Made by a program: the position numbers. 64,000 nucleotides of DNA from Ruditapes philippinarum (lineage: Eukaryota), in assembly GCF_026571515.1 (NCBI RefSeq), contig NW_026861730.1, positions 186,001 to 250,000 on the forward strand, given 5' to 3'. Below, piece by piece: positions 10,017 through 64,000 of the stretch; position 1 is the stretch's first letter, and the number at the start of each line of letters is the position of its first letter.

Positions 10017-13000
10017 TAAAAAGCTGAATCTTACAAACACACTAAACTGAGTAAAACTTAGTATTTATTATTATAAAGTCGCCATCTGATCTGAGTTGTC
10101 ATTGTTGAGTACAATACGAAAGTCATTTACAGTCTGTTTTTTACAGACTGTAAATGACTTTCGTATTGTTACACATCTGTAACACCTTTATTGGACAATT
10201 AGGTAAATCGGCTTTAATTGACGACTTGCACCGACTCAACGACTCCAGCATATTCACTGTAGATATTTTTATGTTATAAAGTAAGTCTTAATGAAGAATC
10301 AATCTTGTTTATAGAGGACCATACAGTACAATGTGTCACACAACGCCTCATTACCGTGACGGTAATCGGATATGTTATGTCGGGGTTCGAAACCATTAAT
10401 CTTCGTTAGACTTGTTTTGTCATCTTAGTAGAAAACAAAAACAAGACATTAGTCCTGTCAACATATGTACAAACGTTTGGTATAACGTGGTTCATATAGT
10501 TCAAAGCATTTTTAAAACGTAAAGTGGTCTGGTTTAAGAAGTGTTATATAATAAATATATACATTAAATAGTTCTGTATATTAACTTTGGCATTTCATGT
10601 GAAGTATATAAAATGAATATGCTGGAGTCGTTGAGTCTTTGTAGATCGTCAATTAAAGCCAATTGACCTAGTTGTCCAATATAGGTTCAACAGATGTGTA
10701 AAAAGACTGTAAAAGGCTTTCGTATTGTACTCAACAATGGTAACATAACTCGCAAGTCACATTACCGATCAGACGGCGGCTTTATAATAATTAAAACAAA
10801 TAAGTTAAGAAATGTTATCATTATGCATGTTAAACTGTTGGTGTACACATTGAGATGATAGTTGTTTGCATTTACAGCTGAATATAACCTAGTCTTCAAC
10901 ATTTTCAATTTTGCCAATTTTTGCCGTTTTTTATTTATTTAGATTCTTATTCGACCAAAGGCTTGACTTCCTGTAAAATGTTTCAGGGAAGAACCGAATA
11001 TAACATGAATTTATTTGGTCATTTTAAAATTACAAACTGAAATATGGGAATCTCATCTGCCATTCTATAATAAACTGTAAATAAAATGTAAAGGATAGTT
11101 ATTGCCATTCTAAAAATGAACTGTAACGAAGTTAAAGATAAAACGTTCATAAGTAGTTGAATTTATATTTTCCGTTATCCTTTTATTCCTGTTTGCAATA
11201 TTTATTATGTGCTTCTGTTAATAATCCTTCCAATATTACATATGATTACAAAATTTATGAAGTCAAACGTAAAAACAAGTAATAAATTATTGTAAAATAA
11301 AAAGTGTCCCAGCTTCGAAGGGACATTATCAATATGCTTATTATTTAATTTCTATGTTTAGAAAATGATGTTGTTTCTTTGTTTTATCTACAAGAAATTA
11401 TAATGTTATTGTCATGCAAGCATTGTTAACATTTATATATGTATCGAAAACTTAGAAATTACATATACAAGTTAACCACTTTTACTTCGACTGGATATCT
11501 TTTTTAAATATAGGTTAAAGTTTATAAGTAGGTATTTACAAAATGAAATTAATTTTGTAAATACCTACTAATAAATTCTAAGTAAACATGTTACGATTCA
11601 TTTGAAATACTGCAATCCTATTGGACAAAAATAATTTCAAACACTAAATTAATTAAGATACTTCTTGTTTGTGACATTTTAGTATTATATATTTATTTAT
11701 TTGGGCGTTTGTCTATTCATTTATAAGCTCGTGAATTTCTAAATGGCTTCTTTTGCAGGATACAATTAATGTGATTTACTGTGTTGCGATAATAAAATTG
11801 TTCAAAAGTTATGTTGTTGTTTTGTTCTTTTCCAGTAAAGCACTACAAATTCACATAGTGTCAGTTAAATACCGACCTACTTACTAAAAATGGAACAGAG
11901 TATAGCAAAGGAAGCAGTAAATAATTGTGAAATGTTTTTCTCTATAGATGATTTATTTGGTTTTGCCTCGTCTTCTACGACAAACTGTGTAAAAATAAGC
12001 GCGTGATATTTTGTACTTATATTGTGATGACGTCATAACTGACATTATAATGAAAATCACGATCTTAATCATGGAAACGGAACTCGTATTTATATGTTAA
12101 TTGATATTGTTTATAATAAATAAGTCATCTTTAATCAGGTGAGGCAGGTATTTATAACATCACAAACACAACATCTCTATTAGTATGGTGTCGTTTATCC
12201 CCGGTGTTGTTGATTATTTAATTCGCTCTCTCTGAATGACATTGAAAAGTTGCATTATTATAAACAGTGAAATTGATTTCTAATAATGACAAGGCAATTA
12301 CGGGACTTTGCAAATTGACTTTATTTATATAGAGTCTACAATAGTTCTATAATTTGAAAATGATACAGGTCGATTATCAATATAAGTTGCAAAATAATCT
12401 GGTGATCAAATCAACCGACTTTTGAAGTAAATAATATGATTCATGTTTGAAGACGTTTTATATGACATTTTCGATTTCCCTAATTGCAGGTTCTTTATTT
12501 AGGTCGCCGATGTAGTAAACACATTACTTTTAGTTTAAAATACATAGAGATTTTAAGAAAGTAACATTAATATAACGTGAGTCGTTGTGTATTTTCAACA
12601 CTTCAGGTAATAATTTTACAACTGTAAAATACACTTTATGCGAGAGTTTAAATCATTAATAAAGTTTAAATAAATTAAGATGAATAAAAAATGTGTTAAG
12701 TATGAAAAATGACAAGATATTTTAAATTTGAACGTTAGTTACAGAGGTTTATGGCTACATAAAGTTTTTTTTTATGTCTTTGTACATATTCAGTTGTTTT
12801 ATACTTATTAAGTACGGCATTAGGCACATCATTTGACCTCTTAATTTTGTCCAATCATCAAGCTAGGTTGTAACACGTGAGGCTATCAACCAATCAGTAT
12901 TTACTAGGCCATTATTCTTTGTTCATAATGTTTTGCAAAAACTACCTCCTCCAACACCACTATTTTGTACATAATATCCATATGTAATATTTGACTAAAA

Positions 13001-61800: not shown

Positions 61801-64000
61801 AAAAAATATATCCGACCGAAATAAAACTGGTTAACTTGCATATGTTATTTCTTCTAAATTTTCGATTCATATAGAAATGTTAACAATGCTTGCAAAACAA
61901 TGACATACTAATTTGTTGTAGCAAAGAAAAGCAAAACAACACCAACACCATATTCTAATCAAAGAAATTAAATTATAAGCATATTGTTATTGTCCTTTCA
62001 ATTCAATGTACGACAACATTTATTTTACACTATTTAAAAACTTGTTTTTACGTTTGACTTTATAAATTTTGTAATCATATGCAATATTGGCAGCATTATT
62101 AAAAGAATTGCATAAAAAATTTGCAAATAGGAATGAAAGGATAATGGAAAGTATAAAATCAGCAAACTACTTACAAACATGTTATCTTTAATTTCATTAC
62201 AGTTCTTTCTGAAATGGCATAAACTATCCATTACATTTTATTTACATTTAATTTTAGAATGGCCAATGAGATTCCCATATTTCAGTTTATAATTTTAAAA
62301 TGGCCAATGACAATTCATGTTATATTCAGTTCTTCCCTGTATATTTTGCAGGAAGTCAAATTTTATAGCCTTTGGCCTAACGGCAAAGTGGCAAACTTAA
62401 AAATGTGAAGAGTCTGAAGAGCTGTAAATTCAAACAACCGTTCACCAGCCCGTACACACCATCATTTTAATATGCATAATGATAACATGTTTTAACCTAG
62501 TCCCATACCTACCCAATAATAATGATAATACTAATATAATGTAACAATATTAATAGTTATAATTATTATATCTAGAGAGCCAAATCTTACAAGCATACTA
62601 AACTTATTAATTATTATAAAGCCACCATCTGATCTGTGACGTTTGTTTGTTTGTTTTTGGTTTACGTCACATTGACACAGTATAGGTCATATCGCGACGT
62701 TCCAGCTTTACTGGTGTTGGAAGACCTCAGGTGCCCTTCCATGCATTATTTCAGGCACGAACGGGTACGTGAGTAGAACCACCGACGTTCCGTAAGTTCG
62801 CTTGATAGCTTCCTCACATGAAATAATCCAAAGTCCCTGTTGGGATTCGAACCCACAGCGGTAAGGGATCTGTGATATGACTTGCGAGTTAATGTGTAAG
62901 TGTTGAGAACAATACGAAAGCCTTTTACAGTCTTTTTGTATTTTCCACCTCAATAAAACCTATATTGGATAATTACGTCAATTGCCTTAAATTGATGAAT
63001 TACACCGAATTAACGACTCTAGCATATTCACTTTAAATGTTTAATCATAAAATGCCAAAGATTATATACAGAAGTATTTAATGTTTTTATTTTTTCTAAG
63101 ATGACAAAACAACTCTAACGAAGATTTATGGCTTCAATCTCCAACGTTACATATCCGATTACCGTCACGGTAATGAGGCGTTGTGTGACACATTGTACTG
63201 TATGGTTCCCTTACAAACAAGATTGATTCTTCATTAAGTCTTACCGTATGACAGCCAAGTGACAAGATGTTTATCAAGGGTTACATATAATGCTGATAAC
63301 AATATAAATAAATGTACATGCTGCCTTCCATACTATATAAGCAATCGGTATTTGGACATTGATTTAACACAAAGGTCAATCTGAAGAAAACACAATCAAC
63401 AAAAACGAAATTTAAACGATTGAATTGTTTTTACGCTTAAATTGTTATTTATATTTTGAAGGATGAATTATTAATATACTAAATTCTATACCTTAGGTAT
63501 TTCTATGAAATATCGCAATTTTACATTCAAGGATAAATTTAAAAGTATACTTCTATTGTCTTTTATTCAGCAGATCTGTAGTTTAAGCACATTAGGCCTA
63601 GTATAATAGTATCTTTTTATATATTTATTTCTTAATGTTACAAAAAGTGTTAATCATTAGAAGCTTAAAACGTTTTCAAAACTACAAAATAAGTAACAGA
63701 ATGACGAGCAAATGAACAATTACCTATACATTGTAAACAACCTATCAAATTCAATAAAATCAATTTAAATTAATCCAATCAGAAGTCTAAAAAATAAACA
63801 TTGACCAACGAAACAAGTTGATATAACCAAAGGTTAACTTGATTAAAATAAAAAAACTTTATCACTGACAAGATTTAATCGATTTTATCAGGTGAATTAA
63901 TATACGCTAAATGAATGCGAAGATAAATTAATTTGTGTAAAATACTTCATTTAAGTATTGGGTATTATTTCGAGATAATTTTCATATATATAAAAAAAAT

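What the first reader, a model, noticed from the sequence alone, without database searches (positions are those of the whole stretch)
10280..63245. A ~53-kb degenerate palindromic amplicon of one lectin gene, with a single intact survivor
Seen: the order is + copy 1 (intact), + copy 2 (frameshift), fold-back, minus remnant, + copy 3 remnant, fold-back, minus remnant, minus copy 4 (dead). Several kb of upstream DNA are mirrored at the two ends. At least six copy footprints exist, produced by both tandem and inverted duplication. Inference: repeated fold-back or template-switch amplification followed by birth-and-death, as expected for a copy-number-variable immune-type locus. It begins only ~5 kb after a conserved housekeeping gene (ELYS).
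[Added by the scan's program, not by the reader: the finding's places include an assembly gap (unread letters, written N; its length is only estimated) at 40084 to 40249. Whether the letters on both sides are continuous or in frame is not known: test that first.]
Basis: partly seen in the sequence, partly recalled or inferred. Interest (0 to 1): 0.75.

Follow-up and report, generated by a model that had tools for sequence, protein, structure and literature searches.

The report
Clam lectin-like gene cluster, mirrored duplicates
A clam gene for a small secreted lectin-like protein has been copied several times, in both orientations, across 53 kb, and most copies have decayed, which is an ordinary way for such gene families to grow in bivalves.

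Summary
The unit is a four-exon gene (signal peptide, PAN/apple domain, C-type lectin-like domain split over two exons) plus several kb of flanking DNA. The closest named relative is a 251-aa Ruditapes philippinarum protein, so the window is from a venerid clam.

The layout is + copy 1, + copy 2, a tail-to-tail centre, a minus remnant, a + fragment (copy 3), a second centre, gutted minus copy 5, and dead minus copy 4.

Three corrections:
1. The second "fold-back" is not independent. It is a direct ~6.6-kb copy (95.7% identical) of the first centre with both its arms, so one inversion event suffices.
2. Copy 2 differs from an intact gene only by one extra A in an A-run, and dN/dS against copy 1 is 0.20. 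"Single survivor" is therefore unsafe.
3. The three direct-duplication junctions have 0-2 bp of clear homology (J3 not measured), so they are not NAHR.

The gap's flanks are collinear with one gene copy (about 90-101 nt expected against 166 N). The gap sits 56 nt from a junction, so a haplotype-stitching artefact for the youngest duplication is not excluded. ELYS, immune role and copy-number variation are untested. This is an ordinary lineage-specific cluster.

The parts
10272..25644 (+). Copy 1 unit: upstream blocks U1 (10272-12741) and U2 (16161-17126), two copy-1-only insertions (12741-16161 and 17126-18501), then gene and tail (18501-25644)
19159..19222 (+). Copy 1 exon 1: ATG plus signal-peptide-like hydrophobic stretch, GT donor, phase 1
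20202..20459 (+). Copy 1 exon 2: PAN/apple domain, phase 1-1
   Evidence: (PAN_1, 26.7 bits)
22018..22200 (+). Copy 1 exon 3: N-terminal half of the C-type lectin-like domain
   Evidence: (Lectin_C, 24.1 bits)
22650..22903 (+). Copy 1 exon 4: C-terminal half of the C-type lectin-like domain, with TAA stop
   Evidence: 85 of 86 residues identical to P0007
25650..35182 (+). Copy 2. It starts at unit position 17001. Exons are at 26451-26514, 27464-27722 (one extra A near 27582), 29538-29720 and 30354-30604. It has a copy-2-only insertion at 31797-32901, and its tail runs to the centre.
35183..36026 (.). Centre 1: 844-nt spacer between tail-to-tail arms. It holds an 85-bp minisatellite (35242-35420), a boundary-element fragment at 35539-35705 (minus orientation), and short inverted units at 35962-36024.
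36027..38679 (-). Minus remnant 5a: a duplicate of copy 5's tail and gene start. It carries no detectable footprint of exons 1-4.
38680..40027 (.). Copy of the first ~1.3 kb of the 3.8-kb insertion that splits copy 5. It ends at junction J2.
40028..43147 (+). Copy 3 fragment. It starts in the middle of exon 3 (40028-40083, with a TAG), crosses the gap at 40084-40249, then has intron 3, exon 4 (40623-40873, open, but an invariant W is replaced by C) and the tail. Unit positions 23404-24613 are deleted.
43148..44089 (.). Centre 2: a direct copy of centre 1, with the boundary element at 43430-43768 (minus orientation)
44090..55301 (-). Copy 5. Upstream blocks and gene start are kept. A 3.8-kb insertion lies at 46839-50678. 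It carries no detectable footprint of exons 1-4 (unit 19759-23955, which held exons 2-4, is unmatched). The tail is kept.
55349..63253 (-). Copy 4, dead. In exon 1 (58216-58153) the ATG has become ATA. Exon 2 (57136-56879) is open. Exon 3 is at 56379-56197. In exon 4 (about 55729-55475) the acceptor CAG has become CAT, and there are 2 stops and a 27-bp deletion. The tail beyond unit position ~23125 is absent.
10058..10800 (.). Local inverted repeat at the left edge, with arms 10058-10268 and 10602-10800 (74-89% complementary, 333-nt loop). The left arm lies outside the amplicon.

Best explanation
This is a lineage-specific cluster of one PAN + C-type-lectin-like (CTLD) gene in a venerid clam. 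It was built by segmental duplication of a roughly 12-kb unit (gene plus flanks) and then partly decayed.

Shown:
- There are two opposed sub-arrays: + copies 1, 2 and 3, and minus copies 5 and 4. They meet tail to tail across a spacer of less than 1 kb.
- The second centre is a direct copy of the first.
- The direct-duplication junctions J1, J2 and J3 are unique and show no extended homology. J1 and J2 have 0-2 bp of microhomology. J3 has only short similarity that I did not measure.
- Copy 1 is intact. Copy 2 is one homopolymer base away from intact and evolved under constraint. Copies 3, 4 and 5 are dead.

Inferred:
- A single inverted duplication, by fold-back priming or replicative template switching, created the opposed arms with a short single-copy spacer.
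- Independent direct duplications by non-homologous (replicative or end-joining) events then added copies in each arm. The breakpoints differ: unit 25644|17001 in the + arm and about 23125|11077 in the minus arm.
- The youngest event duplicated a block that spans the centre.
- Patchy gene conversion explains the mosaic identities.
- The product is a secreted recognition-type protein. Its CTLD lacks the canonical sugar-binding triad, so carbohydrate binding is unproven.
For: Repeat map.

Gene model and lesions.

Centre anatomy: collinear inverted arms run out to 35182|36027 with an 844-nt spacer and short inverted units at its borders. This matches the published fold-back signature of a single-copy spacer with short inverted sequences at its boundary (PMC3907307, abstract read).

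Second centre is a copy of the first: D1 33391-40027 against D2 41342-48135 shows 276 mismatches, 95.7% identity and 42 indel events, and the match is continuous across the centre.

Junctions without extended homology.

Age tiers by substitution-only identity:
- + against minus copies: 79.9-88.6%;
- + copies with each other: 86-96%;
- copy 4 against copy 5: 96.9% in U1, but 82.4% in U2 and 80.8% at the gene's 5' end.

Constraint: copy 1 against copy 2 has 24.0 synonymous differences over 153.6 sites and 20.0 nonsynonymous over 587.4 sites, giving dN/dS 0.20.

Family: XP_060555914.1 from R. philippinarum is 89% identical over the PAN exon. A Mercenaria 'layilin-like' protein is 54% identical. 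Both carry PAN_1 and Lectin_C.

Background: expansion of lectin-like and other immune families in bivalves, largely by tandem duplication, is described in PMC8905726 (passages) and PMC10140915 (abstract start in the listing, plus 3 passages).
Against: - Identities overlap between tiers. In the tail, copy 1 against copy 2 is 86.1% and copy 1 against copy 5 is 85%. Copies 1, 4 and 5 form a trichotomy at about 82% in U2 and the gene start. The order of events is therefore not firmly resolved.
- A tandem array followed by inversion of one sub-array would give a similar picture.
- Junction J2 lies 56 nt from an assembly gap, and the two D blocks differ by only 4.3%. Very heterozygous bivalve haplotypes might reach that level, so the youngest layer could be an assembly product.
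- No expression, population or binding data support function.
- The centre's spacer contains a fragment of the unit's own head element, which the simple model does not predict.
Confidence: 0.7

Rival explanations
1. Partial assembly artefact. Blocks D1 (33391-40027) and D2 (41342-48135), and with them one 'fold-back', one minus remnant and perhaps copy 3, are two haplotypes of one block that were stitched in tandem across the gap at 40084-40249.
For: The gap lies at the D1/D2 border, 56 nt after junction J2. The D1-D2 substitution difference is only 4.3%, and 1.4-2.2% in the four 500-column windows around the centre. Haplotig purging was needed for a related clam assembly (PMC8905726, methods passage).
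Against: The contig left of the gap itself contains J2. After position 40027 it leaves the D sequence and continues for 56 nt as exon 3 (54 of 57 identical to copy 1). An allelic copy should instead continue as D2 does beyond 48135. The gap's two flanks are collinear within one gene copy. There are 42 indel events between the blocks. Copy 3's gene fragment is equidistant from copies 1 and 2, with 46, 46 and 32 informative sites, so it is not an allele of copy 2.
Confidence: 0.17
2. One reading: repeated, independent fold-back or template-switch events produced the two inverted junctions as a stepwise palindromic amplification.
For: Two tail-to-tail centres exist, at 35182|36027 and 43147|44090.
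Against: The two centres share spacer, arms, boundary-element fragment and flanks collinearly over 6.6 kb at 95.7% identity. Independent fold-backs would have different breakpoints and spacers. Arm-to-arm identity within a centre (71-91%) is far lower than centre-to-centre identity.
Confidence: 0.04
3. Tandem array plus inversion. The unit first multiplied head to tail, and a later simple inversion flipped one sub-array. No inverted duplication took place.
For: The minus array reads like a native tandem array: copy 4, copy 5, then the head element of a further unit at 43768-43430. Copies 1, 4 and 5 are equidistant at about 82%.
Against: It needs an inversion breakpoint placed almost exactly at a unit's tail end, so that the arms abut within 1 kb. 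The short inverted units at the spacer borders and the extra inverted patch at the left outer edge (10058-10268) fit template switching better.
Confidence: 0.2
4. Element-driven rearrangement. The ~370-bp repeat at both outer edges and both centres is a mobile or hairpin-forming element that caused the breaks, or it carried the gene as cargo.
For: The element is at 10297-10660 (+), 62867-63253 (-), 43430-43768 (-) and 35539-35705 (-). It contains a perfect 7+7 palindrome inside a run of about 31 nt that is identical in all four copies. Its 58-nt core is 56 of 56 identical between the two outer edges.
Against: Two of the four copies are explained by the outer edges being homologous, and two by the D1/D2 duplication. 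That leaves only two independent placements. The core is 91-93% identical at the centres, so it is not invariant. There are no terminal inverted repeats at the centre copies, no further copies in the window, and no transposase-like ORF. Genome copy number could not be tested.
Confidence: 0.1

Closest known systems
XP_060555914.1, 'C-type mannose receptor 2-like' of Ruditapes philippinarum (P0001, 251 aa)
   Same: It has the same architecture: signal peptide, PAN_1, and one Lectin_C domain. It is 89% identical over the PAN exon. By exon, copy 1 is 67%, 81%, 88% and 80% identical to it. It shares RPA at the sugar-triad position.
   Different: It is not encoded in this window, since no copy reaches 100%. 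It is a paralogue, or an orthologue in a close species. The copy 1 protein itself was not found in the 5.8-billion-protein collection. Only an 87-aa fragment, P0007, matches its exon 4 (85 of 86 residues).
Tandemly expanded immune-type families of bivalves (C1qDC, TNF, C-type lectins)
   Same: These are lineage-specific multiplications of secreted recognition-domain genes in local clusters. See PMC8905726 (passages) and PMC10140915 (abstract start in the listing; 3 passages).
   Different: Those papers describe counts and tandem duplication. They do not describe a tail-to-tail mirrored cluster with resolved junctions. Neither text I searched mentions a PAN-CTLD architecture: in PMC10140915 the terms 'apple' gave 0 hits and 'PAN' matched only 'pan-genome' and 'Panel'. 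Its supplements were closed and may list it.
Fold-back inverted duplications (Hermetz et al. 2014, PMC3907307)
   Same: Inverted arms are separated by a short single-copy spacer, with short inverted sequences at the spacer border (abstract; here).
   Different: Those are recent, large and often terminal human rearrangements with near-identical arms. Here the event is old (arms 71-91%), interstitial, and overlaid by later direct duplications, deletions and insertions.
Ampliconic palindromes of sex chromosomes (recalled, not from a call)
   Same: Gene copies lie in mirrored arms around a short spacer.
   Different: Such palindromes keep arm identity above 99% by gene conversion and preserve the genes. 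Here the arms have diverged and most copies are dead.

Membership tests
C-type lectin-like domain (Pfam PF00059 Lectin_C) | Profile match above the curated cut-off | tested here: met
   Exon 3 of copy 1 scores 24.1 bits and of copy 2 scores 23.9 bits, against a cut-off of 22.6. Exon 4 alone is below cut-off (copy 2 scores 19.3; copy 1 gives no hit), as expected for half a domain. The full-length relative P0001 scores 50.4 bits. PDB CTLDs of DEC-205 and Endo180 match at E 3e-10 to 1e-8.
C-type lectin-like domain (Pfam PF00059 Lectin_C) | Conserved cysteine framework and WIG motif | tested here: met
   The residues invariant among the 4 PAN-CTLD proteins aligned are present in copy 1's exon translations. 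Copy 3 has lost an invariant W, and copy 4 has stops.
Calcium-dependent carbohydrate-binding C-type lectins in the strict sense | EPN or QPD triad and WND motif at Ca site 2 (motif definitions recalled from memory) | tested here: not met
   In the alignment to the Endo180 CTLD, the QPD position falls on (G)RP(A) of the clam protein. Copy 1 reads RPA and FDR at the two positions. Sugar binding is therefore unproven. 'Lectin' here means the fold family.
PAN/apple domain (Pfam PF00024) | Profile match above the curated cut-off | tested here: met
   Copy 1 exon 2 scores 26.7 bits against a cut-off of 21.4. Copy 4 exon 2 scores 20.8, just below cut-off.
Mannose receptor family (the RefSeq name of the closest relative) | Large receptor with several CTLDs and other N-terminal domains (recalled) | tested here: not met
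   P0001 is 251 aa with one PAN and one CTLD only. The window's gene has four exons of the same layout. The name reflects similarity of one domain.
Fold-back or template-switch inverted duplication | Collinear inverted arms around a short single-copy spacer | tested here: met
   The arms are collinear to 35182|36027 with an 844-nt spacer.
Fold-back or template-switch inverted duplication | Short inverted sequences at the spacer boundary | tested here: inconclusive
   Units at 35293-35539 are complementary to 35962-36024 at 71-81% (pairs I6, I7, I11, I16, I19). They belong to a minisatellite, and the event is old.
   Centre 2 is a direct copy of centre 1.
ELYS/AHCTF1 (upstream gene) | ELYS domain or beta-propeller, or a named orthologue | not testable with these tools
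   Only the 3' end of the upstream gene is in the window. Pfam gave no family for 3 of 3 of its ORFs. Of 6952 candidates, 4 relatives passed and all are unnamed. The atlas score was 0.75. An RGRPKK stretch that looks like an AT-hook is visible in the translation; the motif's meaning is recalled.

The most novel reading that the evidence does not exclude
The ~370-bp palindrome-bearing repeat found at both outer edges and in both centre spacers is not a passenger. On this reading it is a hairpin-forming or mobile element that nucleated the fold-back priming and set the amplicon's limits. This locus would then be an example of element-driven inverted amplification of a recognition gene in a bivalve. 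Copy 2 would be functional in some haplotypes, making the locus structurally polymorphic.
Probability: 0.1. Interest if true: 0.55.

Novelty: new member of a known kind. Interest (0 to 1): 0.3.

Why it matters
Bivalves lack adaptive immunity and carry very large, fast-evolving families of secreted recognition proteins. This locus is a compact worked example of how such a family grows and decays. It shows one inverted and several direct segmental duplications with non-homologous junctions, followed by frameshift, truncation, deletion and insertion.

The small PAN + CTLD protein appears restricted to venerid clams. Only 5 of about 1.84 billion representatives scored E<=1e-30. It also lacks the canonical sugar-binding triad, so its ligand is an open question.

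None of this changes current understanding. The practical value is as an annotation warning: copy 2 may be a real gene, and the region around the gap needs long-read confirmation.

Tried and rejected
- **Structure of the closest full-length relative** (P0001 with 3 homologues). Mean pLDDT was 42.4 and pTM 0.33, so the model is unusable. No fold search was run, and domain identity rests on sequence profiles.
- **ELYS identity.** Pfam on three upstream-gene ORFs gave 0 families. The homologue search gave 4 unnamed hits. The atlas gave a score of 0.75 against a diatom 'hypothetical protein' cluster. No verdict.
- **RNA genes or SINE-like parts in the insertions.** Rfam gave 0 matches at gathering score and ARAGORN found 0 tRNAs.
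- **Transposon proteins in copy-specific insertions.** 0 Pfam families in 7 of 7 ORFs tested from 14.7-17.8 kb, 47-49.6 kb and 59.6-60.1 kb.
- **Bacterial promoter and terminator scan downstream of exon 4**. It found 4 sites against 3.8 expected. It is irrelevant for a eukaryote and was a wasted call.
- **'Invariant 58-nt core'.** I first noted the boundary element's core as invariant in all four copies.
- **A head-to-head arm left of the amplicon.** 8722-9286 matches 12252-11709 inverted (76%), but the interval between is not collinear. It is probably a dispersed repeat piece rather than a further arm.
- **Mirror duplication of a ready-made two-copy array.** Rejected because the copy 1|2 and copy 4|5 junctions lie at different unit positions, and copies 1 and 2 are each other's closest relatives.
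- **Literature.** No paper in the library holds 'bivalve' + 'C-type lectin' + 'PAN domain', or 'C-type lectin' + 'PAN apple' + 'mollusc'.
- **Left out.** The joined (spliced) protein of any window copy was not assembled, searched or folded.
- **Unavailable.** Synteny, copy number in other individuals and genome-wide counts of the boundary element therefore stayed unchecked.
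Full report
**What the window is.** The window is 64,000 nt with about 31% G+C and one N run at 40084-40249. Its coding content is eukaryotic and spliced. [quoted passage not shown] The next closest is a 'layilin-like' protein of the hard clam Mercenaria mercenaria (54% identical). 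The window therefore comes from a venerid clam. No copy in the window encodes P0001 exactly, so P0001 is a paralogue or a close-species orthologue. I did not try to determine the species further. Nothing in the window looked human.

**The observation.** Self-BLASTN on both strands and a map of all matches onto copy 1 confirm kb-scale direct and inverted repeats from 10272 to 63253. tblastn with copy 1's exon peptides and with P0001 finds:
- exon 1 in copies 1, 2 and 4;
- exon 2 in copies 1, 2 and 4;
- exon 3 in copies 1, 2 and 4, plus a 56-nt fragment in copy 3;
- exon 4 in copies 1, 2, 3 and 4.

Copy 5 and its partial duplicate have no exon footprints. They are recognised by collinear non-coding homology.

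**The gene.** Pfam, run exon by exon, gives PAN_1 for exon 2 (26.7 bits, cut-off 21.4) and Lectin_C for exon 3 (24.1 bits, cut-off 22.6). The full-length relatives P0001, P0006, P0114 and P0145 all carry PAN plus one Lectin_C domain. Copy 1 has:
- an ATG and a hydrophobic leader at 19159-19222;
- a PAN exon at 20202-20459;
- CTLD exons at 22018-22200 and 22650-22903.

All of these have AG/GT boundaries and phase-1 junctions that fit one another. No search or fold used a spliced model of the window's gene, so the full copy 1 protein remains untested as a whole.

In the alignment of P0001 to the Endo180 CTLD, the QPD sugar-binding triad falls on RP(A). Copy 1 reads RPA, and FDR where WND is expected. 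The motif definitions are recalled from memory. The domain is therefore a CTLD, but calcium-dependent sugar binding is unproven.

The family is narrow. The exhaustive HMMER search with P0001 found 831 proteins at E<=1e-3, 82 at E<=1e-10 and 5 at E<=1e-30 among 1.84 billion representatives. Most are long multi-CTLD proteins that match only the CTLD. Among the short hits I checked, only P0006, P0114 and P0145 carry both domains.

**State of each copy**.
- **Copy 1:** intact.
- **Copy 2:** the ATG, all six splice sites and the stop codon are conserved. The only lesion is one extra A in an A-run of exon 2.
- **Copy 3:** begins in the middle of exon 3 at junction J2 and has a TAG there. It has an open exon 4 in which an invariant W is replaced by C.
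- **Copy 4:** ATG has become ATA, the exon 4 acceptor CAG has become CAT, and exon 4 has two stops and a 27-bp deletion.
- **Copy 5:** upstream blocks and tail are kept, unit 19759-23955 (which held exons 2-4) is unmatched, and a 3.8-kb insertion lies at 46839-50678.

Synonymous and nonsynonymous differences were counted per exon and summed without joining sequence. dN/dS is 0.20 for copy 1 against copy 2, 0.21 for copy 1 against copy 3 (exon 4 only, 17 differences), and 0.36 for copy 1 against copy 4. By inference, a copy that had been a pseudogene since its birth should push the pairwise ratio well above 0.2. Copy 2 was therefore constrained for most of its life. Its frameshift is either recent, polymorphic, or a homopolymer consensus error. 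'Single intact survivor' is not safe.

**The gap.** The left flank 40027-40083 aligns to exon 3 of copy 1 at 22139-22195 (54 of 57) and of copy 2 at 29660-29715 (47 of 56). The right flank 40250-40369 aligns to intron 3 of copy 1 from 22297 (113 of 120) and of copy 2 from 29806 (114 of 119). Both sides are on the same strand and in the right order. The corresponding intervals in the paralogues are 101 and 90 nt, against 166 N of estimated length. The two sides are therefore most simply parts of one gene copy. I assigned no letters to the gap. The state of copy 3's exon 3 donor, which would fall in the unread stretch, is unknown, and the frame across the gap cannot be judged.

**Anatomy and history.** The repeat unit consists of U1 (10272-12741), U2 (16161-17126) and the gene with its tail (18501 to about 25644). 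The tail extends a further 0.9 kb, seen only in copy 2. Copy 1 carries two private insertions (12741-16161 and 17126-18501).

The + arm holds copy 1 and copy 2. Junction J1 joins unit 25644 to unit 17001 with a few filler bases and at most 2 bp of microhomology. The minus arm holds copy 4 and copy 5. Junction J3 joins unit ~23125 to unit 11077. Because the breakpoints differ, the two arms were not made by mirroring a ready-made pair.

The arms meet tail to tail. Collinear inverted homology runs to 35182|36027, leaving an 844-nt spacer. The spacer contains a minisatellite, a fragment of the unit's own head element in minus orientation, and short units complementary to the opposite border.

Block D1 (33391-40027) recurs as D2 (41342-48135). 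The block comprises the + tail, the centre, the minus tail and the first 1.3 kb of copy 5's insertion. The two blocks show 276 mismatches, 95.7% identity and 42 indel events. Between them sit junction J2 (40027|40028, 1 bp of microhomology, cutting into exon 3) and a 1.3-kb gene fragment. That fragment is equidistant from copies 1 and 2, with 46, 46 and 32 informative sites. The second 'fold-back' is therefore a direct copy of the first.

Substitution-only identities give rough tiers:
- + against minus copies: 79.9-88.6%;
- + copies with each other: 86-96%;
- D1 against D2: about 95-96%.

Copies 4 and 5 are 96.9% identical in U1 but 82.4% in U2 and 80.8% at the gene's 5' end, which I read as patchy gene conversion. 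The tiers overlap, and copies 1, 4 and 5 form a trichotomy at about 82%. The order of the old events is therefore not resolved.

**Mechanism.** My committed explanation has three inferred steps.
1. One inverted duplication by fold-back priming or replicative template switching. A short single-copy spacer with short inverted sequences at its border is the published signature (PMC3907307, abstract).
2. Independent direct duplications with non-homologous junctions in each arm.
3. A last direct duplication across the centre, followed by decay.

The extra inverted patch just outside the left edge (10058-10268, complementary to 10602-10800) would fit a second template switch, but this is speculative.

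The rivals, with my probabilities, are:
- haplotype stitching for the D1/D2 layer (0.17);
- tandem array plus inversion (0.20);
- element-driven rearrangement (0.10);
- truly repeated fold-backs (0.04).

**Surroundings.** The + strand ORF at 1-1071, and ORFs at 2328-2597 and 3246-3530, look like the 3' end of a gene for a low-complexity basic protein. No tool names it, so the ELYS claim stays open. The interval 5.4-9.8 kb is filled with satellite-like arrays.

**Comparison and novelty.** Lineage-specific expansion of immune-type recognition genes by local duplication is well described in bivalves (PMC8905726, passages; PMC10140915, abstract start in the listing and 3 passages). This locus is a new, well-resolved member of that kind. 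The PAN + CTLD architecture was not found in the searchable literature. The supplements of PMC10140915 were closed and might list it. Interest is modest.

Noticed in passing
10297-10660 (+), 62867-63253 (-), 43430-43768 (-), 35539-35705 (-): A ~370-bp element marks both outer edges of the amplicon and sits in both centre spacers. It holds a perfect 7+7 palindrome within a run of about 31 nt that is identical in all four copies. Its 58-nt core is 56 of 56 identical between the outer edges and 91-93% identical at the centres. There are no other copies in the window.
   Followed up: partly
10058-10800: A local inverted repeat at the left edge, with arms 10058-10268 and 10602-10800 (74-89% complementary). 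It includes a perfect 27-nt hairpin at 10111-10137 and 10143-10169. The left arm has no counterpart beyond 63253.
   Followed up: partly
5450-9770: Dense satellite-like arrays lie between the upstream gene and the amplicon: 50/100-bp units at 7880-8668 and a 163-bp unit at 9414-9765. DNA flanking that second array (9315-9382 and 9803-9938) matches the two ends of the copy-2-only insertion (31801-31864 and 32764-32902), which carries a 163-bp array of its own at 31882-32219. This suggests a satellite-carrying mobile element.
   Followed up: no
46839-50678: A 3.8-kb insertion splits copy 5. It is richer in G+C (34-37%) than its surroundings, and its first 1.3 kb is duplicated at 38680-40027. No Pfam family was found in 4 of 4 ORFs tested, and there were no Rfam or tRNA hits. 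Its nature is unknown.
   Followed up: partly
25092-25344 (related stretches near 33900 and 41900): A 21-nt (7-codon) GCA/GTA-rich microsatellite lies in the gene's 3' tail. It creates long spurious ORFs of L, S, A and T runs on both strands.
   Followed up: no
59762-60097 (-), also 16161-16356: A 96-nt tandem array (3.5 copies) in upstream block U2 of copy 4 creates a 177-aa repetitive ORF with no Pfam match. Copy 1 has fewer units.
   Followed up: no
1-3530 (+): This is the 3' end of an upstream gene. It encodes a basic, low-complexity protein with repeated TPTRRQSLGR-like units and an RGRPKK stretch.
   Followed up: partly
8722-9286: An inverted copy (76%) of U1 segment 11709-12252 lies outside the amplicon. 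The same segment is present in copies 4 and 5. It is probably a dispersed repeat embedded in U1.
   Followed up: no
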